Source: Nanoarchaeales archaeon (GTDB lineage: Archaea > Nanobdellota > Nanobdellia > Woesearchaeales > UBA583). From it: 50,375 nucleotides of DNA. This document shows, one piece after another, positions 31,453-45,381 of this stretch. The position numbers and the translations under genes were made by a program. The DNA lies in contig JABSQY010000005.1 of the NCBI GenBank assembly GCA_013215525.1, positions 1-50,375 on the forward strand. Reading direction: 5' to 3'. The notes beneath the pieces were generated by a model. The model made no database searches, was not told the origin of the DNA, and saw only the letters and a list, made by a program, of their open reading frames with translations. How positions within the stretch are numbered: the stretch's first letter is position 1; each line of letters begins with the position of its first letter.

Positions 31453-32640
31453 TTAAAGTTCTTCTCTTAGTTTTCCTAAATAAATTGCGGACACAATTCC
31501 TATTGCTAATAAAACTGAAAATACTTGTTTTGAATCTCCAAAAAAGTATAATACTATTAATAAAATCGTTCCCATAATTACTTTTGCACTATGAATTCCT
31601 AATTCTCTTAATATTACATAATCCATTGGATTTACATTTTTTGCGTTATTATAAAATATTGACATAAAAGTTATTCCAAATACTGAATTTGTAAGTTTTG
31701 TAATTGTTTCAACTATATAGATTAAAATTCCACTAAATGTTAATACTAATATTCTTAGTATCCAGCCAAAGGATTTTAATTTAGATGTTTTTGTTAATAT
31801 TGATCTTTTTGGATGATTGTCAATATATTTTTTAAAGTATACCATTAAAAAAACACTAACTATTGATACAAAGGAAAATAAACTTCCTAAACTTAAAAAG
31901 TTATTTGATAATAATGTATATAACAAAATTGGCCAAAATCCCATATTTAAAAACCCTTCAATTCCTTCTGCAAAAAATGCTTTAAATGGTGTTTTAAATC
32001 TTGGCGTTTTATATAATCTTATATAATCTGAATATTTATATTTATGATTTTTAATTTTTAAATCCTCTGCAAATAATAATGGGATAGATCCGATTATAAT
32101 GATTATTAGAGATAATATTAATAATGAAGTTAATGATACAAATTCTAAATAATATCCACCAATTAGTGGCGCTAGCGCTGATACAATAGTAATTATTATT
32201 TGTAGAGTTCCGATTTGACTAGCTGAATGTTTTTTGTTTGAGTTTGCAATAATTTCAGAGTGCATTGCTGGCCAGAAAATTGCCATATGTAGTCCATAAG
32301 ATAACCAAGATATGTGAAATATTATTAAACTTGTATCAATGTAGTTTAGTGTTGCGATGTGAAATAGATATACTGGTACGCTTAATAAAAGAGAATATTT
32401 GAATCAGATTTTATTTATTATTTTACTTGTGTGTGGGATTAATACTAAGTAACTAAATGATATTGCAATTATAAAAAATATTACATATGAAAATGAATAT
32501 CCTAAAGAGTATATGTATACTGGCGCAAATATTCCAATTAATGATTTTACAAATGTTAGTAATGCTTGAAAAATATATAACTTTGACATTTTATCATGGA
32601 GAAGTTTATGAGTTAATGTCTCGTGTTCGTGGTGTAACAT
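31453..32640 (-). pseudogene. MFS-type transporter paralogue 1, interrupted by a single in-frame TGA (32404-32406)
   Basis: ORFs 32404-32640 and 31453-32286 are in the same frame. My hand translation of 32287-32403 is open and collinear with paralogues 2 and 3 (FKYSLLLSVPVYLF.. versus MKYTLLLSSPFFF..). The TGA replaces the GGA Gly of INKIG. Confidence 0.7.
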
Positions 32641-35839: not shown

Positions 35840-35870
35840 TTTTTTTATTTTTAATAATTTTTTAATATTT

Positions 35871-36040
35871 TTTCTCGCTGTGCGAAGTTTCCATATTGTG
35901 CCACTAGTACTATTTTTTAGTAGGTTGGCGAGATATAGATTCTACACCACCATACAAAAAAACTGCACTATTGACAAAATCTGAAAACGAAATTAAAATT
36001 AATCTAAAGTTAGCTATCGCTATGTTTTTATTTATTTTTT
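35871..36040 (+). ncRNA. Structured repeat element, copy A (divergent 3' module)
   Basis: 5' bulged hairpin TTT-ct-CGC-tgt-GCG-AAG. Closing stem CACTAGT/ACTATTG. Central hairpin GGTTGGCG-aga..tct-a-CACCACC. CTGAAAACGAA box. Terminal hairpin TAGC-tatc-GCTA plus T-run. Confidence 0.45.
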
Positions 36041-36069: not shown

Positions 36070-37026
36070 TTATTTTACAAGTTTAAGTTTATTACATAAA
36101 CTTTTCAAATCGCTTGTTAATGGTGCTACGAATTTGTGTTCTTTTCCATCGTATTCAAACTCTAATGTTTGCGCGTGTAGGAATTGTCTTTTTAAACTAT
36201 TTTCAAATACTTTGTTAATGTAATTATTACCATACATTTTGTCAGCAATGATTGGATGTCCGATTGATTTCATGTGTACTCTGATTTGATGTGTTAGTCC
36301 AGTTTCGATTTGAATCTCTACCATTGTTACTGTTTCTTCTTTGAATTCGTATTGGTCAATTACTTTGTAGTGTGATACAGATTTTTTTCCACCAGTTGGT
36401 ACAATTTTCATCTTTTCTTTCATTCCTTGTTCGTTTCTTTCCATTTGAACTTCAATAGTTCCTTCTGGATTGTCGAATTGTCCATCACATAATGCTAAAT
36501 ATTTTTTTGTAACTTTTCTTTCAGCGAATATCTTATTTAATTCTCGAAGTGTGATTTGGTTTTTTGCGCAAACTAAAACTCCTGATGTGTCTTTGTCTAG
36601 TCTGTGTACGTGGAAGTAATTAAAATCTTTAATGTCTCCTTTTTTATTTTTTAAGTATTGTAGGTGTAGTGATAATGATGTGTCGTTGTCTTGAGCTCCT
36701 TGAACTACAACACCTGCCTGCTTGTTTAGGATTAATAAATTTTGATCTTCATATATTGTATCAATTCCTAAATTTTTAGCTTCTTGGTTTTCTTCTGTGT
36801 TTACAGTTTGGTTTGCGCTTCTTAATTCAATGTCATCAAGCCAGCACTTTAACACGTCACCAGTTTTTAATTTAACTTCTCCTTTGATTTTTTTACCGTT
36901 TATTGTTAATCTTTTTTCTTTGATTAGGCGGTGTACCTTAGTGAATGGTACGTCTATCATTTTCTTTATGTAGCCCTTTGGGGATACTCCTTCGTAGTCT
37001 TTTGTTATTGTTATTTCGAATGCCAT
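36070..37026 (-). CDS. RluA-family pseudouridine synthase with N-terminal S4-like domain
   Basis: Catalytic motif HRLDKDTSGVLV, plus THQIRVH. 318 aa. Confidence 0.88.
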   Translation of the reverse strand: MAFEITITKDYEGVSPKGYIKKMIDVPFTKVHRLIKEKRLTINGKKIKGEVKLKTGDVLKCWLDDIELRSANQTVNTEENQEAKNLGIDTIYEDQNLLILNKQAGVVVQGAQDNDTSLSLHLQYLKNKKGDIKDFNYFHVHRLDKDTSGVLVCAKNQITLRELNKIFAERKVTKKYLALCDGQFDNPEGTIEVQMERNEQGMKEKMKIVPTGGKKSVSHYKVIDQYEFKEETVTMVEIQIETGLTHQIRVHMKSIGHPIIADKMYGNNYINKVFENSLKRQFLHAQTLEFEYDGKEHKFVAPLTSDLKSLCNKLKLVK

Positions 37027-37112
37027 TTTTATTATTGTTTAAGATTATCTTTGATAATCTTGCTATATATTAAAAAGAATACTTTTATGTTTAAAAGTGT
37101 GGTGTTTTTATG

Positions 37113-37292
37113 TTTTGCTCCTTGCTTTGCAGAGTTTCCATATTTGTACTATAGCACTAAAATTAAGACACAATTCGATATAGCAATGCTATTAATCGAG
37201 TGTCTGAATTTCAGCACTCTAGCACAAATCTGAAAACGAAGTTTTAATTGAGGCGAAAATTGGCTTCGCGTGTATATCTGCCTTTTTGTTTT
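37113..37292 (+). ncRNA. Structured repeat element, copy B (alternative central hairpin)
   Basis: 5' hairpin CTC-ct-TGC-ttt-GCA-GAG. Closing stem ATTTGT/ACAAAT. Central long hairpin AGACAC-aat-TCGAT-ATAGC-aat-GCTAT-ta-ATCGA-g-GTGTCT. 3' module AATCTGAAAACGAAG..GCGAA-aattggc-TTCGC..GCCTTTTTG. Confidence 0.55.
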
Positions 37293-38322
37293 ACTTAGTA
37301 TATATTTTCTTTTTCAGATTTTCATAGATTCCTTTTGTAAATTGTATCCAATTGTAATTTTTATCTTGAACTAATAAATCATAATGTATAATGTATTCTT
37401 CTGTATGTTTTTTGAATAATTCAATACTTGAATTTAATTCTTCTGGGTTTCTTGCGTTAAAATATAATATTAAATCGTAATCTCCAATAAAGTTTCCAGC
37501 ATAAAATATGTTTTGTAATTTTAAGAAAGGTTTCTTTAATATCTCATGTGGCGTGTTCTGTTTAATTCTTACTAATAAAAAATAAGTTACAAAACCTTGT
37601 TTTGATAAGTTTGGAATTGCTCCAAAATTAATTATTACTTTTTTTTCAATTAAATTTATAATTTTCTTTTTAACAGTATTTCTATCTATGTTTAATTCTC
37701 TACTTATGTTAATTAAAGACTCTTGTGGGTTTTGTGATAATATGTTTAATATCTCAATTTCTTTTAATGTTGGGTTATACTTTACAAAATCTTTTGATAC
37801 TGGAAAACTTTTTGTACATAATATATTACTAAATGAATGGTCTAGTTTTTTTTGAAACTTTGTATTTAAATTTAGAATTGGATTTAATTGCGTAAACTCT
37901 AAATCTGATAAATGCGTTAATATAATATATTCTTTTATTTTATTTTCACATAATTCAAATAGTTCTTCACGGATTTTATTTAAATGAAAACTATCTGTTG
38001 CATCTAGTATTATTTGTAAATCATATCTTCCAATAAATGAATTTGTCCACATAACATATTTATGTTTTGAAATTAGTTTAATTATGTCTTGCTTATTTTT
38101 AACTCCAATATCAAATCTTAATAATATGTGGTATCTTGTAAATCCTAAAACTCTTGAATCTATAAATAAAATGTTTTGTTTGATGTGTTTTTGTTTAATT
38201 AAATTATTTATTTTGTATGAAATTGTATCTTTTGATAATTTTAATGCTTTTGCAATTGTTGTAGTTGGAATTCTACAATTTTGAGCATATATTTCCATGA
38301 TTTGTAGGTCTTTTTTATCCAT
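37291..38322 (-). CDS. Tandem Lrp/AsnC-like transcriptional regulator (two HTH plus ligand-domain modules)
   Basis: Two repeats of the Lrp-type HTH (DLQIMEIYAQNCRIPTTTIAKALKLSKDTISYKINNL and EIEILNILSQNPQESLINISRELNIDRNTVKKKIINL), each followed by a ~70-aa domain. Confidence 0.7.
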   Translation of the reverse strand: MDKKDLQIMEIYAQNCRIPTTTIAKALKLSKDTISYKINNLIKQKHIKQNILFIDSRVLGFTRYHILLRFDIGVKNKQDIIKLISKHKYVMWTNSFIGRYDLQIILDATDSFHLNKIREELFELCENKIKEYIILTHLSDLEFTQLNPILNLNTKFQKKLDHSFSNILCTKSFPVSKDFVKYNPTLKEIEILNILSQNPQESLINISRELNIDRNTVKKKIINLIEKKVIINFGAIPNLSKQGFVTYFLLVRIKQNTPHEILKKPFLKLQNIFYAGNFIGDYDLILYFNARNPEELNSSIELFKKHTEEYIIHYDLLVQDKNYNWIQFTKGIYENLKKKIYTK

Positions 38323-38417
38323 TATTAGAATATTGTTTATTATATTATATAAATATTCCTCATTTTGATTAAATATGATTAATTGGTTTCTTATATTGTT
38401 TAGTACTCTTATTATTT

Positions 38418-39086
38418 ATGGAAATACAAAAAAACTTAATTGGAACTGTTTTTAAGACTGGATATAATGTTTTTAATGAAAAAGGATGTGTTATTGTTGG
38501 ATTAAGTCAAGGGAATTCTTATTTTAAAGTTGACTTAATTAATAATTTGTTAAATTTTTGTAAAAATAATTTTTCTTTTGTAAATATTATGAATGCAGAT
38601 AAACCTTCTATTTATACATACTTAGCTTTAGGACATAGTTTAGAAAAATCTGTTAAAAAAGCAAATAAAAATGGAAAATTATTAACTAATCATTGTAATA
38701 AGTTTATATCAAAAAGTTTAAGTTCAAAATTTAATTTATTTGATTGGGGAGTTGAAATTGATTCAAATAAAATTTATCAAGATGAATTAAAGAGATTAAA
38801 AGTACTTTTTGAATCTAACTTAAAATTTAAAGATGATGTTTGTAATACTACAAAATCTGTTTTAGAAAATAAAATACTTGATGTTTCTAAATTAGATTTA
38901 GGAATTTCAATTGGTGTTAATTATTTATTATGTGAACTTGCTTTTTTGTCAGTTTCTTGTGACTTATTTGGGATAGATAAAATTGCTTATATTTATCATA
39001 ATAGGTGGGAGGTGTTTGAGAACTTTGTGAATGGTGTTTATGATGGGAAGATAAATAAACATATTGGTTTTATTATTGTTAGGTAG
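38418..39086 (+). CDS. tRNA-dependent cyclodipeptide synthase (CDPS), NYH subfamily-like
   Basis: Collinear by eye with AlbC/YvmC. VGLSQGNSYF matches GIS(A/P)(G/F)NS(Y/R)F (catalytic Ser plus Asn). GVNYLLCELAFL matches NYVLAEAPLF (Tyr-x3-Glu). AYIYHNRW matches LCYH/LAYHRPW (Tyr-His). IGFIIV matches the C-terminal QGYLIV. 222 aa. Confidence 0.8.
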   Translation: MEIQKNLIGTVFKTGYNVFNEKGCVIVGLSQGNSYFKVDLINNLLNFCKNNFSFVNIMNADKPSIYTYLALGHSLEKSVKKANKNGKLLTNHCNKFISKSLSSKFNLFDWGVEIDSNKIYQDELKRLKVLFESNLKFKDDVCNTTKSVLENKILDVSKLDLGISIGVNYLLCELAFLSVSCDLFGIDKIAYIYHNRWEVFENFVNGVYDGKINKHIGFIIVR

Positions 39087-39100
39087 GCTTGTTTTTATTG

Positions 39101-39280
39101 TTTTGCTCCTCACTTTGTGGAGTTTCCACATTTGCACCAATGCACCAATTTTTTGTAGGTTGGCGAGATATAGATTCTACGCCACCGTACAAAAATTCGG
39201 CACCTTGATACAAATCTGAAAACGAAGTTTGATTTGAGGCGAAAATTGGCTTCGCTGTGTATGTCTGCCTTTTTGTTTTT
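39101..39280 (+). ncRNA. Structured repeat element, copy C (full length)
   Basis: 5' hairpin CTC-ct-CAC-ttt-GTG-GAG. Closing stem ATTTG..CAA / TTG..CAAAT. Central hairpin GGTTGGCG-aga-tatagat-tct-a-CGCCACC followed by GTACAAAA. The 3' module is nearly identical to copies B and D. T-run terminator-like end. Confidence 0.55.
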
Positions 39281-39376: not shown

Positions 39377-40198
39377 TTAATTAATTTTTTTAGTTTTATC
39401 TAAATTTAAATAATTATTTGATGATACTACTTTAGTTGTTGATTCTTTTTCTAGTTCTTTAATTGCATTTTTAGCAATATTGCCACCTTTTCTTGCTGAT
39501 TCTAAATTTTCGTTAAATCCTTGTGAATTCAAATCTTTAGATATTTGAGTTGTTGATGCTTCTCCAAGCATTGAAAATATTAATTCTAAGTCCGTCATAT
39601 GGTCTCTTAAATTTTGATTTGGTTTTATAATTCCTTTATGATTTTTATGTTCTTTAATGGATTTATCAAAGGTTGCTTTTGAAATTTCATTTGTTAAAAT
39701 TGCGAATTCTTGTGACTGTTCAATTCCTCTATTTTTCCATTCATCAGTTAATTCTTCTCTTACTGCTATTCCTCTTAATCTTTTTTCAATCCAACCTTTT
39801 GAATAACCTTTAACTTCATAATATTCTTTTACTCTTTGTTGTGCTAGTTCTGGATTTTCAATTTCTAATAGTCTATCTTCTCCAACTTGTGCTAACCATT
39901 GTTTAAATGGTTCTGCTTTTTTAGATGGAACTGATTGTATGATTCTTAAAAGTCCTTTTCTTGATACGCAATCTGTAACTCTCAACTTTCCATCAGTTGC
40001 TTTTAATTTCAACTGTCGACAATTTGTCGATAGTTCAACTCCTTGTTCTAATTCTCTTTTTTTTAATCTATACCAGTAATCTTTTGCATCTTTACTATCA
40101 GTTAATACTCTTATTATATCCACAACTGAAAAATACCATTCTTCATCATGCCACATTCTTCTTATTTTTTGGTTTTCAAAATTAATTATTTCTTCCAT
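39377..40198 (-). CDS. Bro-N domain / DinD-like (DNA-damage-inducible protein D family) protein
   Basis: Collinear by eye with E. coli DinD. N-terminal Bro-N-like segment (IRRMWHDEEWYFSVVDIIRVL) and NQNLRDHMTDLELIFSMLGEASTTQ matching NQKILDHMGSTELAANLFRATQTEE. Confidence 0.7.
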   Translation of the reverse strand: MEEIINFENQKIRRMWHDEEWYFSVVDIIRVLTDSKDAKDYWYRLKKRELEQGVELSTNCRQLKLKATDGKLRVTDCVSRKGLLRIIQSVPSKKAEPFKQWLAQVGEDRLLEIENPELAQQRVKEYYEVKGYSKGWIEKRLRGIAVREELTDEWKNRGIEQSQEFAILTNEISKATFDKSIKEHKNHKGIIKPNQNLRDHMTDLELIFSMLGEASTTQISKDLNSQGFNENLESARKGGNIAKNAIKELEKESTTKVVSSNNYLNLDKTKKIN

Positions 40199-40323: not shown

Positions 40324-40641
40324 TTACTCTAATATAAAATCTTTTTTTAAAGATTTATTATATCTAAAATTTGTTTGCTCAACATCAACTTTTCCTTTAT
40401 GATTGTAATAGTAATTTTTATCAGTAATAAAATTATTATATTTGAAAGTTTCAACATCTGCTCCAGTTAAAATATTATAATTATAATAAACATTAAATTT
40501 ATCTTTTCCATAATCTTTACTTAAGAACTGATATGACTCTGGATCAGTAATATTTTTCATTATTTTATTTTTAACATAAACATTATTATTGTCTTTTGCT
40601 ATATCATATACACTGTTTAAAATTATGAAAGACTTAGAATC
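40324..40641 (-). pseudogene. DKNYY-family repeat protein, 5'-truncated remnant
   Basis: The listed ORF (40324-40560) contains KDYGKDKFNVYY, GADVETFKY and TDKNYYY. By hand translation the frame stays open upstream of its ATG and still encodes DKNYY-like repeats (DSKSFIILNSVYDIAKDNNNVYVKNKI) up to ~40641, with no start codon, and ends at element copy D. Confidence 0.6.
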
Positions 40642-40720
40642 TGAAAACGAAGTTTGAAATTAGGCGAAAATTGGCTTCGCGTGTATGTCTGCCTTTTTGT
40701 TTATTCAAATATATTTATGG
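40638..40720 (+). repeat. Partial copy D of the structured element (3' module only)
   Basis: AATCTGAAAACGAAGTTTGAAATTAGGCGAAAATTGGCTTCGCGTGTATGTCTGCCTTTTTGTTTATTCAAATATATTTAT, near-identical to the 3' modules of B and C. An inverted 13-mer GCGAAGCCAATTT lies at 40771-40783. Confidence 0.7.
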
Positions 40721-40813: not shown

Positions 40814-42850
40814 TTATTTATCCCAGTTTATAACTTTTTCAAAATTAAACATTTGTTCATCAGATAATTTTTGTTTATTATAATTAAACTTTTGTCTATC
40901 GTACCAATTAACTAAAATCTTATCGTCATTATCTGAGTTTTTTCTATTTGGTAATCTATTATTGTTTTTAATAAATTCAATTAATAATTTATAGTTTTTA
41001 ATCCATAGTTCTAATTGACTATTTTTATTTATGATACTTTCCCAACTCCATATGGGTATGTTTTCCATTAATTCAATTTTTTTTTGAGTTAATTTATTTT
41101 GTCGAAATAAATATTTTTGTCTTTCAAACCAACTTACTATATCTTTGTCATCATTATTTACTTTTTTTCTATTTGGGAGTCTATTATTATCTTTTATAAA
41201 ATTAAACAAAGTATTATAATTTTTCATCCATAATTCTAATTGCCCTTTTTCACTTATTGAACTTTTCCAATTCCAAAGTTGAATATTTTCCATAAGTTCA
41301 ACTTGTTTTTTATTTAATTTATTTTGTTTGTATGAGTGCCTTTGTCTTTCAAACCAAAGTATTATTACTTTATCATCACTATTCTTTTTTTTTCTATTTG
41401 GGAGTCTATTATTATCTTTTATAAAATTAAACAAAGTATTATAATTTTTCATCCATAATTCAGATTTATTTCTTTCACTTCCCCAACTCCAAAAAGAGAT
41501 ATTTTCCATAAGATTAATTTGTTTCTTATCTAATTTATTTTGTCGAAATAAATATTTTTGTCTTTCAAACCAATATACTATAGATTTATCATCACTATTC
41601 TTTTTTTTTCTATTTGGAAGTCTCTTATTTTTTTCAACAAATTTTGAAAATATTTTATAATATTCACTCCAAGATTTATAACTTTCTTCTTTTCTATAAC
41701 CCCAAAACCATTTTTCTAAAGATTCAAGTAGATTTATTTGTTCGTCAGATAATTTTGAGTATGGGATTTGTCCTCTATAAACTCTTCTTTGTATCATACA
41801 CCAAACTCCTAATTTTTTTTCAGAAGGTATTTTAGAATCACCTTTAGGCATATTTCCTTGGTTTTTTGAAATAAAAATTAATAAATTATCATATATTTCT
41901 CCCCATTTATCTCTCCTTGTCCAATACCAACTAGGGAGAGACTCTAATAATTTTATTTTTTCATCAGATAATTTTTCTTTACTTTTTTCTCTTCCTGAAA
42001 AAATTCCTCTTTGTCTTTTAATCCAAGTATCTAATTTTTCTTCTGGTTTTGAAACTTCTTTAAATGGACTTCTATAATCTTGTTTAGTTGGATGTCTTTT
42101 ATATTTCTTAATAAATAGTTTTACTTTATTATAACTTATAAACCACATATCTTTTCTACTCCAAATCCAATGTTCTAAGTTTTCTAAATCATTAATGTTT
42201 TCTTTATTTAGTAAACCTTTTGTAAAATTTTGTCTTTGTATATTACACCACTTACCTAATTCGTGTTCTGTTTTATCTCTTGAAGCATTCGCAGGTGTTT
42301 TATTATTTAAGTTAGTGAATCTTTTTACAGCGTTATAAATAGTTTTCCAAGATTCTGATTTTATGTCTATAGATGCTCTTGTTTCAAAAGTTCCATCTGC
42401 TCTATATTTATAATAATATTTTATAATTCCTTTTATTATTTCTGTTCTTTCTTTAGAAATAATTTTCATTAATTTTTCATCTAATACTAATGTTTCATGC
42501 TCAGAAGTTAGTACTTTTCTTTTTTTAAATTGAATGTTTTTTTCAAAAGTAATTTCAGATTTATAATGTGCAACTTTATTTCTGATTTTTTGAATTTTTT
42601 CTATAGATTTCACAATTTTTTTAATTTCAACTTTATCAAAATTTTCAATTTTACAAATTTTTTGAAAAATTATAACTTTATTTTCAAAATTGAATTTTAA
42701 TAAAATTGTTTCTTGAAAAAATGAAGTTTTAGAAGTTCTTGGAGAAATATAATAATCTGAAATAAATGTTTCTAAATATGATTCAATATGTAATATTGTT
42801 GATAAAATTTCTCCAATTTTTTCATGAAATTCCTTTATCTTTTCTTTCAT
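40814..42850 (-). CDS. HEPN-like (Rx4H) N-terminal domain fused to seven helicase-associated (HA, PF03457-like) repeats
   Basis: The N-terminal ~110 aa are helical with KIRNKVAH (R-x4-H). Seven ~70-aa repeats then follow the pattern W..Y..L..F......P........LG/IV.W..RQR......L....I..LE....W.W. Confidence 0.65.
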   Translation of the reverse strand: MKEKIKEFHEKIGEILSTILHIESYLETFISDYYISPRTSKTSFFQETILLKFNFENKVIIFQKICKIENFDKVEIKKIVKSIEKIQKIRNKVAHYKSEITFEKNIQFKKRKVLTSEHETLVLDEKLMKIISKERTEIIKGIIKYYYKYRADGTFETRASIDIKSESWKTIYNAVKRFTNLNNKTPANASRDKTEHELGKWCNIQRQNFTKGLLNKENINDLENLEHWIWSRKDMWFISYNKVKLFIKKYKRHPTKQDYRSPFKEVSKPEEKLDTWIKRQRGIFSGREKSKEKLSDEKIKLLESLPSWYWTRRDKWGEIYDNLLIFISKNQGNMPKGDSKIPSEKKLGVWCMIQRRVYRGQIPYSKLSDEQINLLESLEKWFWGYRKEESYKSWSEYYKIFSKFVEKNKRLPNRKKKNSDDKSIVYWFERQKYLFRQNKLDKKQINLMENISFWSWGSERNKSELWMKNYNTLFNFIKDNNRLPNRKKKNSDDKVIILWFERQRHSYKQNKLNKKQVELMENIQLWNWKSSISEKGQLELWMKNYNTLFNFIKDNNRLPNRKKVNNDDKDIVSWFERQKYLFRQNKLTQKKIELMENIPIWSWESIINKNSQLELWIKNYKLLIEFIKNNNRLPNRKNSDNDDKILVNWYDRQKFNYNKQKLSDEQMFNFEKVINWDK
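40830..41700 (-). repeat. Tandem coding repeats (~216-225 bp period) encoding HA repeats 4-7
   Basis: A stretch of more than 60 nt is identical by eye at 41168 and 41393 (tctatttgggagtctattattatcttttataaaattaaacaaagtattataatttttcatccataattc), a 225-bp period. Flanking units are more diverged. Confidence 0.8.
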
Positions 42851-43092: not shown

Positions 43093-43917
43093 CTATAAAT
43101 CAAAAGATTCTGTTGAGTTTAATTGTTCTTTTATGAATTTATTTAAATCTTCGATTAAATTTGTTGTGGATTTTGTATATTTATCAACATCTTTTCCGCT
43201 CATTTGGATTTGATTTTTTTCTACTTGTTTATACAACTCATACATTTGTTTTATTTGGACACCGTATTTTTCTATTGGAGTTCCTTTTAATTTTACTTTA
43301 AATATTTCAGGGATTTCTTTTGGACTACTTGGAGTTATTTTCTTTGCCATTAATGCTGCGTGTGCCATGTCAACTGTTGCGTAATATAAATCTAGAAAAC
43401 TGTTTTGCATATGTTTGTGTGTTTCCTCGAGCAGTGTTTCTGCTCTTGCTTTGTAGTTGTTAATTGCTTCAATTGTTGGTCGCATTCTACCAATTTCTAA
43501 TAAATATTGTAGTGGCGCGATTAAATCTCTATCAAATAATGGAGTTCCGTGTCTTAAAATGTTTGTTAAAACTGGGTCTCCTTTTCTACTCATGTCCCAT
43601 AATGCTGATAAATTAATTGTCATTAAATGGATTTTTCCTTTTGCAAGGTCTGTGTTTAGTTTGTTTGTAATAATTCTGTACGCTTCTCTTAATTCATCTG
43701 TTACAAAAACTGTAACGTTATTTAATACAACTAAAATGTCAATGTCTGAATCTTTGTTTAATGTGTCGTTTGTATTAGATCCGAAAAGCACAATACTTCG
43801 AACTAGTTCTCCCATTTCTTTAATTAAATTTTTTGAAAATTCTCTTGTAATTCTTAAATTTTCAATGTGATAGTTTTCTTCGTTTGAAGTTTGTTTTTGA
43901 TTTTGTTTGAAGTCCAT
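43093..43917 (-). CDS. Minimal nucleotidyltransferase domain fused to a HEPN-like helical domain (KNTase-like architecture)
   Basis: NTase motif VLFGSNTNDTLNKDSDIDILVV. C-terminal helical domain YYATVDMAHAALMAKKITPSSPKEIPEIF. Paralogous to 47047-48417. Confidence 0.7.
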   Translation of the reverse strand: MDFKQNQKQTSNEENYHIENLRITREFSKNLIKEMGELVRSIVLFGSNTNDTLNKDSDIDILVVLNNVTVFVTDELREAYRIITNKLNTDLAKGKIHLMTINLSALWDMSRKGDPVLTNILRHGTPLFDRDLIAPLQYLLEIGRMRPTIEAINNYKARAETLLEETHKHMQNSFLDLYYATVDMAHAALMAKKITPSSPKEIPEIFKVKLKGTPIEKYGVQIKQMYELYKQVEKNQIQMSGKDVDKYTKSTTNLIEDLNKFIKEQLNSTESFDL

Positions 43918-43977
43918 TTTGATTTTATTTATATTTGATTAATATTTTTGAGTATTTTTTATTTTTTTACCTTTTTG

Positions 43978-44529
43978 TTACGCTTTAATTTGGTGATTTA
44001 CTAAATCTAATTCGATTCTTGACAAGTCATCAATTATGTCAAACATTTTTCTTGATATATCTTTTAAGTCTTTTATTTCATCATCTTTTTGAGATAGTTT
44101 TTCTTTTAATAAATATAATTCAAGTTCAGAGCTGTGAGTTTGCTCTTTTAGTTTTTTAATCTCTGCTTTCATTTCAGATTTATTTTCTTTAATTGATGTT
44201 TTATTATGTTTGATTGATTCAATTAAACTTGAAATTTTTAAATGTTCACCGTGAGAGTCTGATACAATTTGTTTTAATTCTTTAATTTCAGCTTTCATTT
44301 TTTCAAATTCAAACGCTGAGATTTCATCTGGTTTGTTTTTTACGTGGTGTTTGATGTGGTGAATTTGTTCTTGAAGATGATTTGATACGTTATGGATTTG
44401 TTTTGAAATTTCTTTATGGTTTGATAAAAATTCATTATAATTGTGAGAAATTTTATCAGATAAAAATAACATATCATTTTTAACTTTTGAAAAACCTTCT
44501 TTGATTTTTGGAAGTTCTGTTTTAAACAT
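43978..44529 (-). CDS. Coiled-coil protein (His-rich segment), function unknown
   Basis: 183-aa ORF with heptad-like K/E-rich sequence and HHIKHHVKNK. Lies 60 bp upstream of the NTase gene on the same strand. Confidence 0.5.
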   Translation of the reverse strand: MFKTELPKIKEGFSKVKNDMLFLSDKISHNYNEFLSNHKEISKQIHNVSNHLQEQIHHIKHHVKNKPDEISAFEFEKMKAEIKELKQIVSDSHGEHLKISSLIESIKHNKTSIKENKSEMKAEIKKLKEQTHSSELELYLLKEKLSQKDDEIKDLKDISRKMFDIIDDLSRIELDLVNHQIKA

Positions 44530-44622
44530 ACTATTTTTTACATTTTTAGTTTTTTAATGTATGGTTTTAATTAGTAAGTTGTGACTGAAAGGATTTTCGA
44601 TATGTTTTTATAATTAGGTTGT

Positions 44623-45381
44623 TTGATTATATTTATGTTTATTAAAAATATTAAATTTAATTATGTTTACGTACGTGATTCAGGTGTTAAAATAGATTCA
44701 AATGTACATCCATTTAATTTAGATGTTTTTAATTTTTTTAAGAAAGGAGGAGAATTAATTTTTAATTCAAATGTTACTTTTTTTGTTGGAGAAAATGGAG
44801 CAGGTAAAACTTCATTTATTGAAGCGTTCGCTTATAAACTTGGTTTAAATAAATTTGGTGGATCTAAAAACTTTATTTTAAATGAAAATGAAAAACCAGT
44901 TTTATCTGATTTTTTGTCTATTGTTAAAGCTAATAATGCGTTATCAGGTGATGCTTTTTTTTTTAGAGCTGAAAATTTTTTTAATTTACAAGATGATTTA
45001 GATAAATATCTTAATACTTCTAGTACGTATACTGGTAATTCTAAAAATTTTCGAGAAATGTCACATGGTCAAGGTTTTAAAGCTTTTTTCGAGAACAGGC
45101 TTGGTGATGAAGGAATATATATATTTGATGAACCTGAATCTGCTTTATCAGTTCAATCACAAATAGAATTTTTATTTTTATTAAAGGAGTTATCAAAATT
45201 AAATAATCAAATTTTTATTGTTACACATTCGCCTATTATTTTATCGTTTCCGAACGCTGAGATATATGATGTGTCGCTGGACTTTGAGAAAGTAGATTAT
45301 GAGGAGACAACGCAGTTTTGTGATATGAAGAATTTTATTAATAATGTTGATAGATATAGATATGATTTAAAAAAAGATTAA
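44623..45381 (+). CDS. Stand-alone ABC-type (SMC/RecF-like) ATPase, COG3910-like
   Basis: Walker A GENGAGKTS, signature-like MSHGQG, Walker B IYIFDEPESALS, H-loop VTHSP. The listed start is TTG; the first ATG is at 44635. Confidence 0.75.
   Translation: MIIFMFIKNIKFNYVYVRDSGVKIDSNVHPFNLDVFNFFKKGGELIFNSNVTFFVGENGAGKTSFIEAFAYKLGLNKFGGSKNFILNENEKPVLSDFLSIVKANNALSGDAFFFRAENFFNLQDDLDKYLNTSSTYTGNSKNFREMSHGQGFKAFFENRLGDEGIYIFDEPESALSVQSQIEFLFLLKELSKLNNQIFIVTHSPIILSFPNAEIYDVSLDFEKVDYEETTQFCDMKNFINNVDRYRYDLKKD

What the first reader, a model, noticed from the sequence alone, without database searches (positions are those of the whole stretch)
38418..39086. tRNA-dependent cyclodipeptide synthase in an archaeal accessory cassette
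The 222-aa product carries the CDPS hallmarks in the correct order and spacing. These are the catalytic Ser and Asn in VGLSQGNSYF, Tyr-x3-Glu in NYLLCE, and Tyr-His in YIYH (NYH-type). It is collinear by eye with AlbC and YvmC. CDPSs hijack aminoacyl-tRNAs to make 2,5-diketopiperazines. They are mostly bacterial, and archaeal examples are rare. Here the gene is divergently paired with a tandem Lrp/AsnC-type regulator and flanked by structured elements B and C. It lies close to three MFS paralogues and a SemiSWEET, which are candidate exporters. No recognisable tailoring enzyme (CDO, P450, methyltransferase) is adjacent, so the product may be an unmodified cyclodipeptide.
Basis: partly seen in the sequence, partly recalled or inferred. 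Interest (0 to 1): 0.7.

Follow-up and report, generated by a model that had tools for sequence, protein, structure and literature searches.

The report
Archaeal cyclodipeptide synthase with paired regulator
The gene is a genuine, catalytically intact tRNA-dependent cyclodipeptide synthase in a tiny DPANN archaeon; the enzyme family is well known and the gene is already labelled as such in GenBank, but in these archaea it is consistently inherited together with a double Lrp/AsnC-type regulator, a pairing I could not find described.

Summary
ORF 38418-39086 (+) encodes a 222-aa NYH-type cyclodipeptide synthase (CDPS). It scores 90 bits on Pfam PF16715 (cut-off 27) and 105 bits on TIGR04539 (cut-off 45). 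The AF2 model (pLDDT 95.8) matches solved CDPSs at TM 0.80-0.85. All catalytic and signature residues align with AlbC: S30, N33, Y169, E173, Y193, H194.

The host is archaeal. GenBank labels the contig Nanoarchaeales archaeon and already annotates the protein (NQZ84196.1) as a tRNA-dependent cyclodipeptide synthase.

New here:
- The enzyme belongs to a large uncharacterised NYH subclade with a conserved P1 pocket. Its product cannot be predicted.
- In 11 distinct loci (10 archaeal-type, one bacterial) the CDPS is divergently paired with a ~340-aa fused double Lrp/AsnC protein. The two genes co-diverge (Mantel r = 0.94).
- Nine of those loci share a conserved back-to-back promoter region, while the flanking genes are unrelated.

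No tailoring enzyme or exporter recurs, so the MFS/SemiSWEET link is not supported. In this genome the pair is bracketed by copies of a 185-nt hairpin repeat and abuts a defence-type island.

Best reading: a self-contained module, probably amino-acid-responsive, that makes an unmodified cyclodipeptide. It is a new member of a known kind, of moderate interest.

The parts
38418..39086 (+). NYH-type cyclodipeptide synthase, 222 aa (GenBank NQZ84196.1). Catalytic S30, Y169, E173, Y193; signature N33, H194. P1 pocket I26 G28 M58 A60 W110 F176 L177 Y191; P2 pocket T144 S147 V148 N151 N195 W197 E198.
37291..38322 (-). Fused tandem Lrp/AsnC (feast/famine) protein, 343 aa, with two wHTH + RAM units (halves 29.5% identical). 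Predicted regulator, divergently transcribed from the CDPS (GenBank NQZ84195.1).
38346..38362 (-). Conserved block TATATAAATATTCCTCA (on the - strand TGAGGAATATTTATATA). Inferred BRE/TATA promoter of the regulator gene.
   Evidence: Near-invariant in the alignment of 7 loci and also present in L020 and L021. The promoter assignment is an inference.
38363..38386 (.). 24-nt spacer between the two promoter blocks. A partially palindromic segment, TCATTTTGATTAAATATGA, spans 38360-38378. Candidate operator for the tandem Lrp protein.
   Evidence: Palindromic spacers occur in L010, L011 and L014. The operator role is an inference.
38387..38401 (+). Conserved block TTTCTTATATTGTTT (consensus TTTATTATATTGTTT). 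Inferred TATA box of the CDPS promoter, ending 17 nt before the ATG (short or absent leader).
37105..37289 (+). Copy B of a ~185-nt repeat with a ~40-bp imperfect hairpin core. It abuts the regulator's stop codon.
39093..39276 (+). Copy C of the same repeat, starting 7 nt after the CDPS stop. It ends in T-runs and could act as a terminator.
35859..36039 (+). Copy A of the repeat, between the PQ-loop-like ORF and the RluA-family gene.
40638..40700 (+). Partial copy D of the repeat (the 3' 63 nt).

Best explanation
ORF 38418-39086 encodes a functional NYH-subfamily cyclodipeptide synthase of a DPANN archaeon (Nanoarchaeales/Woesearchaeota-type MAG).

Mechanism, by homology with AlbC and YvmC:
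1. The enzyme takes the aminoacyl group of a first aminoacyl-tRNA onto Ser30, with the side chain sitting in pocket P1.
2. It transfers a second aminoacyl group, held in pocket P2, from a second aminoacyl-tRNA to form a dipeptidyl-enzyme.
3. It cyclises this, with help from Tyr169, Glu173 and Tyr193, and releases a 2,5-diketopiperazine.

P1 is lined by hydrophobic and aromatic residues (IGMAWFLY), so at least one residue of the product is probably hydrophobic. The exact product cannot be predicted.

The gene forms a self-contained two-gene module with the divergently transcribed fused double Lrp/AsnC protein. I infer that this single-chain 'dimer' binds the spacer between two back-to-back archaeal promoters. 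From there it would control both its own gene and the CDPS in response to a small ligand, most likely an amino acid (the family norm) or possibly the cyclodipeptide itself.

No tailoring gene or dedicated exporter is part of the conserved module, so the product is most likely an unmodified cyclodipeptide.

Shown here: family membership, intact catalytic residues, fold, the pairing, co-divergence and the conserved promoter blocks. Inferred: activity on archaeal tRNAs, DNA binding at the spacer, the ligand, and the biological role.
For: CDPS membership:
- Profile scores 3- and 2-fold above the Pfam and NCBIfam curated cut-offs.
- The closest solved sequences are the BtCDPS, S. haemolyticus, YvmC and AlbC enzymes.
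- AF2 model pLDDT 95.8 and pTM 0.91. All the top PDB fold hits listed (50 chains) are CDPSs, TM 0.80-0.85 for NYH members and lower for XYP members.
- S30 is nearly invariant, and N33, E173 and Y193 are invariant, across 32 subclade members.
- No HIGH or KMSKS motif. Helix 75-100 carries 7 Lys/Arg against 1 Asp/Glu.

The pairing:
- The CDPS lies divergently next to the tandem Lrp gene in 11 distinct loci: the window, L007, L010-L015, L017, L020 and L021.
- Flanking genes are unrelated among the eight loci compared all-against-all, and the Pfam contexts of L017, L020 and L021 also differ.
- Pairwise identities of the two genes are tightly correlated: Mantel r = 0.935, p = 1e-4.
- Promoter blocks are near-invariant with fixed ~24-nt spacing in nine loci, from genomes of 24-59% GC.

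The partner as a DNA-binding regulator:
- Two HTH_AsnC/HTH_24 hits above cut-off.
- Sequence-profile hits only to true Lrp/AsnC regulators such as FL11, PH0140, LrpA and ST1022.
- AF2 pLDDT 95.3, with each half matching FFRP structures at TM 0.75-0.85.
- Conserved basic residues in both recognition helices, and highly conserved RAM domains.

No recurrent tailoring or export gene.
Against: - No expression or product data exist.
- This allele, shared with L001, carries rare residues at positions well conserved in the subclade: H73 (Tyr in 93%), N83 (Arg in ~84%), K87 (Asn in 83%), T90 (Lys/Arg in ~77%) and C142 (Arg in 67%). They lie in or near the basic helix that CDPSs are known, from the literature, to use for tRNA binding. 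The 92%-identical L002 allele has the consensus residue at four of these. Activity or tRNA choice may therefore be altered.
- Whole-gene dN/dS against L002 is 0.54, high for an enzyme.
- The partner is more conserved than the enzyme (median 62% against 40% identity), which is unusual for a local regulator.
- Its only full-length structural analogue is the enzyme NirDL.
- Two distant members of the regulator family pair with a Peripla_BP_6 gene instead of a CDPS.
- DNA binding at the spacer is not demonstrated.
Confidence: 0.75

Rival explanations
1. The pair is a horizontally mobile cassette. The ~185-nt hairpin repeats that bracket it would be recombination or mobilisation sites (attC- or MITE-like), making the CDPS a recently acquired accessory gene rather than a lineage-typical module.
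For: - Three full copies and one partial copy of the repeat, all in the same orientation, occur only at 35.8-40.7 kb. They delimit [RluA], [regulator+CDPS] and [Bro-N/PDC-S13 + DKNYY].
- The hairpin is kept by compensatory changes between copies.
- Downstream genes are of defence or mobile type: PDC-S13 E = 1e-115, an AriA/GajA-like ATPase fragment and a nucleotidyltransferase.
- The pair sits in unrelated contexts in other genomes and also occurs in a bacterial MAG.
Against: - No integrase or transposase is present in the 50-kb window.
- The repeat is absent from all other pair-carrying loci.
- Regulator and CDPS co-diverge smoothly across 11 loci.
- Near-identical strains keep the same arrangement.
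- Genes in the units have mixed orientation, unlike integron cassettes.
Confidence: 0.15
2. The tandem Lrp-fold protein is not a transcription factor. It would be an enzyme or protein partner acting on the cyclodipeptide or on the CDPS, as the Lrp fold does in the siroheme decarboxylases NirDL and AhbAB.
For: - The best full-length structural match is NirDL (4ch7, TM 0.61, E = 2e-15).
- The protein is more conserved than the CDPS.
- The RAM-like domains are its most conserved parts.
Against: - Only 12-13% identity to NirDL.
- AhbA and AhbB models score 25 and 22 bits against cut-offs of 140 and 125.
- A family profile finds only genuine Lrp/AsnC regulators in the PDB, not NirDL or AhbAB.
- Both HTH motifs score above the Pfam cut-offs.
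- The promoter region is conserved, and its spacer is palindromic in several loci.
Confidence: 0.07
3. This particular allele is drifting towards loss of function. It would be a relic CDPS that no longer binds tRNA productively.
For: - Rare residues at five well-conserved positions of the basic helix region and nearby.
- dN/dS of 0.54 against L002, while the adjacent regulator has no nonsynonymous change.
Against: - The ORF is intact in three strains or assemblies.
- All catalytic and all 15 pocket residues are unchanged.
- dN/dS remains below 1.
- The helix remains strongly basic, with 7 Lys.
- The model is confidently folded.
Confidence: 0.08

Closest known systems
YvmC (Bacillus), S. haemolyticus CDPS and BtCDPS: NYH-subfamily cyclo(Leu-Leu) synthases with solved structures
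   Same: Closest solved relatives by sequence (E = 4e-11 to 7e-9) and by fold (TM 0.80-0.85). They share the Ser/Tyr/Glu/Tyr catalytic set, the Y-H signature, Trp at AlbC position 206, and a similar start of the P1 pocket ([L/I]-G-L-A against I-G-M-A).
   Different: Only ~20% identity. P1 position 119 is Trp here, against Phe, Thr or Arg in those enzymes (alignment in this region is less certain). P1 position 200 is Tyr, against Leu or Met. P2 is different. There is no pulcherrimin-type P450 (CypX) neighbour. The host is archaeal and the regulator is different.
AlbC (Streptomyces noursei), the founding CDPS
   Same: Collinear, with all six catalytic and signature residues aligned. Same fold (3oqv TM 0.69; the AlbC-type entry 4q24 TM 0.80).
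   Different: 17% identity. P1 is LGVVLLFL against IGMAWFLY. AlbC sits in a cluster with the cyclodipeptide oxidase AlbA/B; no oxidase is present here.
Uncharacterised NYH CDPSs of candidate-phyla-radiation bacteria in the 2018 census (Moranbacteria OGI43181.1, Kerfeldbacteria OGY85379.1, Ryanbacteria, Andersenbacteria)
   Same: Nearly the same pocket motifs: IGFAWFLY/TGVGKWE and VGLAWFLY/TAVGKWT against IGMAWFLY/TSVNNWE. They are listed in the 'NYH, unpredictable' sheet. The window's nearest 150 relatives share this P1 type.
   Different: These are bacterial. Two are fused to a C-terminal domain that the census calls an 'ABC transporter-domain'; long relatives of the window's enzyme carry a solute-binding domain (SBP_bac_3) in that position, probably the same kind of fusion. 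No tandem Lrp partner is reported for them, and none has been characterised.
AQS34941.1, the only archaeal CDPS in the 2018 census of 765 sequences
   Same: A CDPS from an uncultured archaeon known only from metagenomic data.
   Different: It is XYP subfamily with different pockets (FGLVWILH/IENNGSL). The window's enzyme is NYH.
FL11/PH1519 and other archaeal feast/famine regulatory proteins (Lrp/AsnC), for the partner gene
   Same: Each half has the wHTH + RAM fold (TM 0.75-0.85) and is the best sequence match. These proteins bind amino acids and palindromic DNA sites.
   Different: Here two units are fused into one 343-aa chain (a covalent pseudo-dimer). This architecture has been solved only for the enzyme NirDL, which is unrelated in sequence.

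Membership tests
Cyclodipeptide synthase (PF16715 / TIGR04539) | Significant full-length match to the family profile above the curated cut-off | tested here: met
   PF16715 90.3 bits (cut-off 27), profile positions 12-219 of 220. TIGR04539 105.4 bits (cut-off 45).
Cyclodipeptide synthase (PF16715 / TIGR04539) | Class-I aaRS-like Rossmann fold superimposable on solved CDPSs | tested here: met
   AF2 pLDDT 95.8. Foldseek TM 0.80-0.85 to 6ez3, 7azu, 3oqj and 4q24, and all 50 listed PDB hits are CDPSs.
Cyclodipeptide synthase (PF16715 / TIGR04539) | Catalytic Ser37, Tyr178, Glu182 and Tyr202 (AlbC numbering) | tested here: met
   S30, Y169, E173 and Y193 align with them and are conserved in the subclade.
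Cyclodipeptide synthase (PF16715 / TIGR04539) | Absence of the ATP-binding HIGH and KMSKS motifs of class-I aaRSs | tested here: met
   No H[IVLM]GH or KMSKS-type match in the 222 aa.
Cyclodipeptide synthase (PF16715 / TIGR04539) | Basic patch (helix alpha4) for tRNA binding | tested here: inconclusive
   Helix 75-100 has 7 Lys against 1 acidic residue. However, the subclade-conserved Arg83 and Lys/Arg90 are replaced by Asn and Thr in this allele.
Cyclodipeptide synthase (PF16715 / TIGR04539) | Formation of a cyclodipeptide from two aminoacyl-tRNAs | not testable with these tools
   Needs expression or in vitro assay with LC-MS.
NYH subfamily of CDPSs | Asn40, Tyr202 and His203 (AlbC numbering) | tested here: met
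   N33, Y193 and H194. NYH structures rank above XYP structures in the fold search.
Published CDPS specificity groups (cLL, cYY, cWW, cCC, cFX, cPX and others; Gondry 2018) | P1/P2 motifs matching a group consensus | tested here: not met
   IGMAWFLY/TSVNNWE matches none of the characterised motifs available to me (Table 2 and the cPX, cGE and 'NYH CDPSs' sheets); the consensus logos and the cLL, cYY, cWW, cCC, cFX and cWX sheets were not held. The best match is 5 of 8 to the inactive CDPS 79 (VGMAWFFF). It is closest to the unclassified CPR sequences.
Lrp/AsnC (feast/famine) transcription regulators (partner gene) | N-terminal AsnC-type wHTH | tested here: met
   HTH_24 45.6 bits (cut-off 21.9) and HTH_AsnC-type 44 bits (cut-off 27), with two stretches each at residues ~1-44 and ~185-230.
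Lrp/AsnC (feast/famine) transcription regulators (partner gene) | C-terminal RAM (AsnC_trans_reg) ligand-binding domain | tested here: met
   The Pfam AsnC_trans_reg score is sub-threshold (17.7 against 25). But the AF2 halves match full FFRP structures, RAM domain included, at TM 0.75-0.85, and the family profile aligns across it (residues 181-302 to FL11).
Lrp/AsnC (feast/famine) transcription regulators (partner gene) | Sequence-specific DNA binding modulated by a small ligand | not testable with these tools
   Only indirect support: a conserved, partly palindromic spacer between conserved promoter blocks.
Siroheme decarboxylase NirDL / AhbAB (considered for the partner) | Match to AhbA/AhbB family models | tested here: not met
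   25.5 and 22.4 bits against cut-offs of 140 and 125. Absent from the profile search of the PDB. The resemblance is architectural only.
Integron gene cassette array (considered for the repeats) | Adjacent IntI-type tyrosine recombinase and co-oriented cassettes each ending in an attC | tested here: not met
   No recombinase in the 50 kb. Gene orientation is mixed. attC motif models were not available.
Diversity-generating retroelement target (considered for the variable patch) | Adenine-specific substitutions and a nearby reverse transcriptase with template repeat | tested here: not met
   The 30 substitutions are of all types and at all codon positions. No reverse-transcriptase domain hit among the annotated ORFs of the window.

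The most novel reading that the evidence does not exclude
The fused double Lrp protein and the CDPS together form an ancient, cross-domain-transferable 'feast/famine-gated cyclodipeptide signalling' module of DPANN archaea. The regulator would sense amino-acid supply, or the diketopiperazine itself, and switch on synthesis of a diffusible, unmodified cyclodipeptide. The cyclodipeptide would mediate communication or antagonism between these host-dependent ultra-small archaea and their hosts or neighbours. That would be the first dedicated small-molecule signalling system proposed for DPANN archaea.
Probability: 0.2. Interest if true: 0.7.

Novelty: new member of a known kind. Interest (0 to 1): 0.45.

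Why it matters
CDPSs are a well-understood enzyme family, and this gene is already auto-annotated as one. Identifying it is therefore not a discovery in itself.

What may matter is the following.
- There is a populated archaeal (Woesearchaeota/Nanoarchaeia) branch of the NYH subfamily. The last family census knew one archaeal sequence, of the other subfamily.
- It belongs to a large subclade, with CPR-bacterial relatives, that has a conserved but uncharacterised P1 pocket. One expression experiment could assign a product to hundreds of sequences.
- It comes with a strictly linked, co-diverging double Lrp/AsnC partner and a conserved promoter architecture. This gives a rare, directly testable regulator-target pair in organisms that cannot be cultured and have very few transcription factors.

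If the product is a signal or an antagonist, it would bear on how DPANN archaea interact with their hosts.

Tried and rejected
1. The search for related loci with CDPS alignments A2 and A3 failed because no sufficiently conserved stretch exists. The single-protein scan of GTDB species genomes found no relative. I then anchored on the better-conserved regulator instead, which worked. The metagenome scan gave only one distant regulator without a CDPS.
2. The word-indexed homology search on the CDPS was nearly blind, with 2 and 7 hits. The exhaustive representative search was needed.
3. A diversity-generating retroelement as the cause of the variable patch between the window and L002 is rejected. 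Substitutions show no adenine bias, and no reverse-transcriptase domain hit appeared among the annotated ORFs.
4. An integron or attC reading of the 185-nt repeats is not supported. There is no recombinase and gene orientation is mixed.
5. A viral origin of the repeat is rejected. Five IMG/VR contigs share only a 19-23-nt word, not the element.
6. Rfam has no family for the repeat; the only hit is a chance microRNA-hairpin match.
7. Independent replacement of the CDPS next to a conserved regulator, which I first suspected from 61% against 31% identity, is rejected. The two genes co-diverge (Mantel r = 0.935); the CDPS simply evolves faster.
8. Siroheme decarboxylase identity for the partner is rejected at the sequence level.
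9. MFS or SemiSWEET as dedicated exporters: there is no conservation across loci.
10. Product prediction from the published pocket code gives no match to the characterised motifs that were available.
Full report
OBSERVATION

The ORF listing returns an ATG-initiated ORF at exactly 38418..39086 (+), 222 aa. It matches Pfam CDPS PF16715 at E = 2e-25 and 90.3 bits (gathering score 27) over profile positions 12-219 of 220. It matches NCBIfam TIGR04539 'tRNA-dependent cyclodipeptide synthase' at 105.4 bits (cut-off 45).

Against PDB sequences the best hits are all CDPSs: BtCDPS 6ztu (E = 3.6e-11), the S. haemolyticus enzyme 6ez3, YvmC 3oqh and AlbC 3oqv. In the HMMER alignment to AlbC, whose chain numbering reproduces the literature numbering, the residues map as follows:
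- S30 = S37
- N33 = N40
- Y169 = Y178
- E173 = E182
- Y193 = Y202
- H194 = H203

An AlphaFold2 model built on 32 relatives is very confident (pLDDT 95.8, pTM 0.91). In a Foldseek search of the PDB, all 50 listed hits are CDPS chains. TM is 0.80-0.85 for the NYH enzymes 6ez3, 7azu, 3oqj and 4q24, and the XYP enzymes rank lower. The sequence has no HIGH or KMSKS motif and has a Lys-rich helix at 75-100.

HOST AND PRIOR ANNOTATION

The window begins with the 3' end of an archaeal 23S rRNA. It encodes RNA polymerase subunit E'/Rpb7, a NIP7-like protein and TrmB, along with a purine-biosynthesis cluster and MutL. GC content is ~26%.

An exact-sequence look-up shows the window is a 50,375-bp GenBank contig of a 'Nanoarchaeales archaeon' MAG (Nanobdellota). 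The protein is deposited there as NQZ84196.1, 'tRNA-dependent cyclodipeptide synthase'. Its neighbour is NQZ84195.1, 'AsnC family transcriptional regulator'. The family assignment is therefore already public, by automatic annotation.

Two near-identical loci exist in other assemblies: L001 (99%) and L002 (92% at the protein level). Both have the same gene order.

PLACE IN THE FAMILY

An exhaustive HMMER search of 1.84 billion cluster representatives finds 439 relatives, 228 of them at E <= 1e-10.

I mapped the published pocket positions onto the sequence. They are P1 = AlbC 33-35-65-67-119-185-186-200 and P2 = 152-155-156-159-204-206-207 (PMC5816076). This gives P1 = IGMAWFLY and P2 = TSVNNWE.

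The 150 nearest relatives share a strongly conserved P1 of the form (I/V/L)-G-(M/F/L)-(P/A/T)-W-F-(L/I)-Y and a variable P2. In the 2018 census this motif type appears only in four uncharacterised CPR-bacterial sequences in the 'NYH, unpredictable' sheet, for example Moranbacteria IGFAWFLY/TGVGKWE. No characterised motif available to me matches better than 5 of 8 positions. The product therefore cannot be predicted beyond a hydrophobic, aromatic-lined P1.

That census saw one archaeal CDPS among 765, and it was XYP type. Full-text searches found no paper linking CDPSs with DPANN, Woesearchaeota or CPR, or with Lrp/AsnC.

THE PARTNER GENE AND THE MODULE

The divergent gene 37291-38322 (-) encodes a 343-aa protein.
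- It has two AsnC-type HTH hits above the Pfam cut-offs.
- It gives two-stretch matches to archaeal Lrp-type models (LysM, LrpA).
- Its halves are 29.5% identical to each other.
- Its model (pLDDT 95.3) has two wHTH + RAM units. Each half matches Pyrococcus FFRPs at TM 0.75-0.85. The only full-length analogue is the fused Lrp-fold enzyme NirDL (TM 0.61, 12% identity).
- A family profile finds only genuine Lrp/AsnC regulators in the PDB, not NirDL or AhbAB. The AhbA and AhbB models score far below their cut-offs.

I therefore read it as a single-chain double Lrp regulator. The enzyme reading remains a minor rival.

The family is a sharply bounded orthologous group. More than 110 clusters at 90% identity have 45-75% identity to the window protein, and identity then drops to 26%. 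Source names are Woesearchaeota, Nanoarchaeia and Nanoarchaeota.

I anchored searches on this protein and found a CDPS divergently adjacent in every one of six GTDB genome loci. The same holds in L007 and in L017, L020 and L021. Counting the window, that is 11 distinct loci.
- One locus (L015) is a Bdellovibrionota MAG whose neighbours are bacterial: an NtrC-type sigma-54 response regulator and GmhA. The pair has therefore crossed domains as a unit.
- Two of the most distant regulators (L018 and L019, 45-46% identity) are instead paired with a Peripla_BP_6 amino-acid-binding protein.
- Outside the pair, flanking genes share no homology among the eight loci compared. No tailoring enzyme or exporter recurs.
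- L020 has CDPS-PLP enzyme-MFS on one strand, but that MFS is not orthologous to the window's.

Pairwise identities of regulator (44-83%, median 62%) and CDPS (21-65%, median 40%) are tightly correlated: Spearman 0.91, Mantel r = 0.935, p = 1e-4. The two genes have been inherited together, and the CDPS evolves faster. This settles my earlier puzzle of 61% against 31% identity.

The ~95-nt intergenic regions of seven loci, from genomes of 24-59% GC, align with two near-invariant blocks about 24 nt apart. Both blocks also occur in L020 and L021.
- TATATAAATATTCCTCA lies at window 38346-38362. It reads as BRE/TATA on the regulator's strand.
- TTTATTATATTGTTT lies at window 38387-38401, as TTTCTTATATTGTTT.
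- The spacer is often palindromic: L011 CATTTTTCTTAAAAATG, L010 CTCATTATTCTAAAGAATAGATGAG, and the window TCATTTTGATTAAATATGA.

I interpret this as two back-to-back archaeal promoters with an operator between them. This is an inference.

MECHANISM

By homology (established CDPS mechanism; PMC5816076, PMC3105412), Ser30 is acylated by a first aminoacyl-tRNA whose side chain sits in P1. A second aminoacyl-tRNA, with its side chain in P2, gives a dipeptidyl-enzyme. Tyr169, Glu173 and Tyr193 then assist cyclisation to a diketopiperazine.

The conserved module contains nothing else, so the product is most likely left unmodified. The RAM domains are the most conserved parts of the partner, which points to a conserved ligand. 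For this family the ligand is normally an amino acid, which would link production to aminoacyl-tRNA supply. Sensing of the product is an alternative.

CAVEATS ON THIS ALLELE

The window and L002 are 100% identical over ~2.5 kb except in two places. There are 30 substitutions at 38549-38841, inside the CDPS (17 amino-acid changes at residues 56-142), and 5 substitutions at 38269-38359.

The changes are of all types and codon positions (21 nonsynonymous, 9 synonymous). This looks like a recombination tract or a mosaic of strains, not retroelement mutagenesis. No catalytic or pocket residue differs.

At four well-conserved positions (Y73, N87, K/R90, R142) L002 carries the consensus residue and the window allele carries a rare one. 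Both alleles lack the conserved Arg83. These positions lie in or near the basic helix that CDPSs are known to use for tRNA binding, so activity or tRNA preference could be altered.

SURROUNDINGS AND THE 'CASSETTE' IDEA

A ~185-nt element occurs three times in full and once in part, all on the + strand and only at 35.8-40.7 kb. The coordinates are 35859-36039, 37105-37289, 39093-39276 and 40638-40700. Its core is a ~40-bp imperfect hairpin maintained by compensatory differences between copies. Each copy lies just beyond a gene's 3' end, and the element ends in T-runs.

The copies delimit three units: [RluA-family pseudouridine synthase], [regulator + CDPS] and [Bro-N/DinD-like gene + DKNYY]. 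The same arrangement is present in L001 and L002. The element is absent from all other pair-carrying loci. It has no Rfam family and no real viral match.

Downstream genes are of defence or mobile type:
- 39377-40198 matches PADLOC candidate PDC-S13 at E = 1e-115 and phrog_15286 at E = 1e-94.
- 43093-43917 is a nucleotidyltransferase.
- 44623-45381 is an AriA/GajA/mad3-like ATPase fragment.

No integrase or transposase is present in the window. 'Accessory cassette' is therefore plausible for this neighbourhood but unproven. The comparative data instead show a stably co-inherited two-gene module.

The three MFS genes are true paralogues, 36-57% identical to each other, but they are 3-7 kb away and not conserved with the pair. 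The 'SemiSWEET' is only a sub-threshold PQ-loop match.

VERDICT

The finding is correct and well read. The enzyme family is known and the gene is already labelled, so it is a new member of a known kind.

The added value is threefold: the archaeal NYH branch, the uncharacterised conserved pocket type, and the strictly linked, co-diverging double Lrp partner with a conserved promoter architecture. None of these appears in the literature I could search. Interest is moderate (0.45).

Noticed in passing
window 35859-36039, 37105-37289, 39093-39276, 40638-40700: A ~185-nt repeat family with three full copies and one 3' partial copy, all on the + strand and clustered within 5 kb. Its ~40-bp hairpin core is kept by compensatory changes between copies. 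Each copy sits just past a gene's 3' end and ends in T-runs. It has no Rfam family, no recombinase nearby, and is absent from other genomes' loci. Terminator, MITE or cassette boundary is unresolved.
   Followed up: partly
window 38549-38841 compared with L002 1379-1671: The window and the Logan contig L002 are identical over ~2.5 kb except for 30 substitutions confined to ~300 bp inside the CDPS, causing 17 amino-acid changes, plus 5 in the promoter and regulator 5' region. All substitution types occur. L002 carries the clade-consensus residue at four conserved positions where the window allele does not. This is a recombination tract or a strain-mosaic assembly.
   Followed up: yes
window 39377-40198 (-): The Bro-N / DinD-like protein immediately downstream of the CDPS matches the PADLOC candidate defence system PDC-S13 almost full length (E = 1e-115) and phrog_15286 (E = 1e-94). 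This is strikingly high conservation for a gene in an archaeon.
   Followed up: partly
window 43093-45381: A nucleotidyltransferase (PDC-S09-like), a coiled-coil protein and a 252-aa AriA/GajA/mad3-like ATPase that looks truncated. Together with the 678-aa protein at 40814-42850, which has seven helicase-associated (HA) repeats, this resembles a defence or mobile island.
   Followed up: partly
window 31453-32640 (-) compared with L001 2948-4135: The first of the three MFS paralogues aligns full length (395 aa, 99.7%) in one frame with its L001 counterpart, yet is listed as only a 277-aa ORF in the window. This implies a single in-frame stop codon (nonsense mutation or sequencing error).
   Followed up: partly
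relatives P0017, P0023, P0053, P0058, P0062, P0077, P0083, P0090, P0103, P0108, P0115, P0129, P0144: A group of CDPS relatives (two clusters in the NJ ordering) has Cys in place of the catalytic Ser (C-N-Y-E-Y-H/Y), with distinctive P1 motifs (LPFPWFLY, LAFTWFLY). These may be thioester-forming CDPS variants.
   Followed up: no
relatives P0022, P0044, P0096; loci L006, L018, L019: There is a recurrent link between this CDPS clade or its regulator family and amino-acid-binding proteins. Some relatives are CDPS-SBP_bac_3 fusions. The CDPS in L006 is flanked by Peripla_BP_5/6 genes. Distant regulator homologues are divergently paired with Peripla_BP_6 instead of a CDPS.
   Followed up: partly
L015 5118-7011 (Bdellovibrionota MAG JBIKWF010000002.1): The regulator + CDPS pair also occurs in a bacterial genomic context (NtrC-type sigma-54 response regulator, GmhA, AccC). 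This implies cross-domain transfer of the two genes as a unit. The promoter blocks conserved in the archaeal loci are not recognisable there.
   Followed up: partly
L017 3104-3922: The CDPS paired with the most distant regulator checked (45% identity) is 272 aa. It lacks the NYH signature (Val at position 40, Gln at 203, Phe at 178) while keeping Ser, Glu and Tyr. It is a divergent variant within the same module.
   Followed up: no
L020 659-3885: In this locus the CDPS is followed on the same strand by a PLP-dependent enzyme (PALP) and an MFS transporter. This may be an extended operon with a tailoring or supply enzyme and an exporter, and is not seen elsewhere.
   Followed up: no
window 36070-37026 (-); L015 2313-3083; L007 1723-2655: RNA-modification genes lie within ~3 kb of the pair in three of the loci: an RluA-family pseudouridine synthase in the window and in L015, and a dihydrouridine synthase (Dus) in L007. 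This may be coincidence. An RluA-type enzyme with an S4 domain is itself unusual in an archaeon.
   Followed up: no
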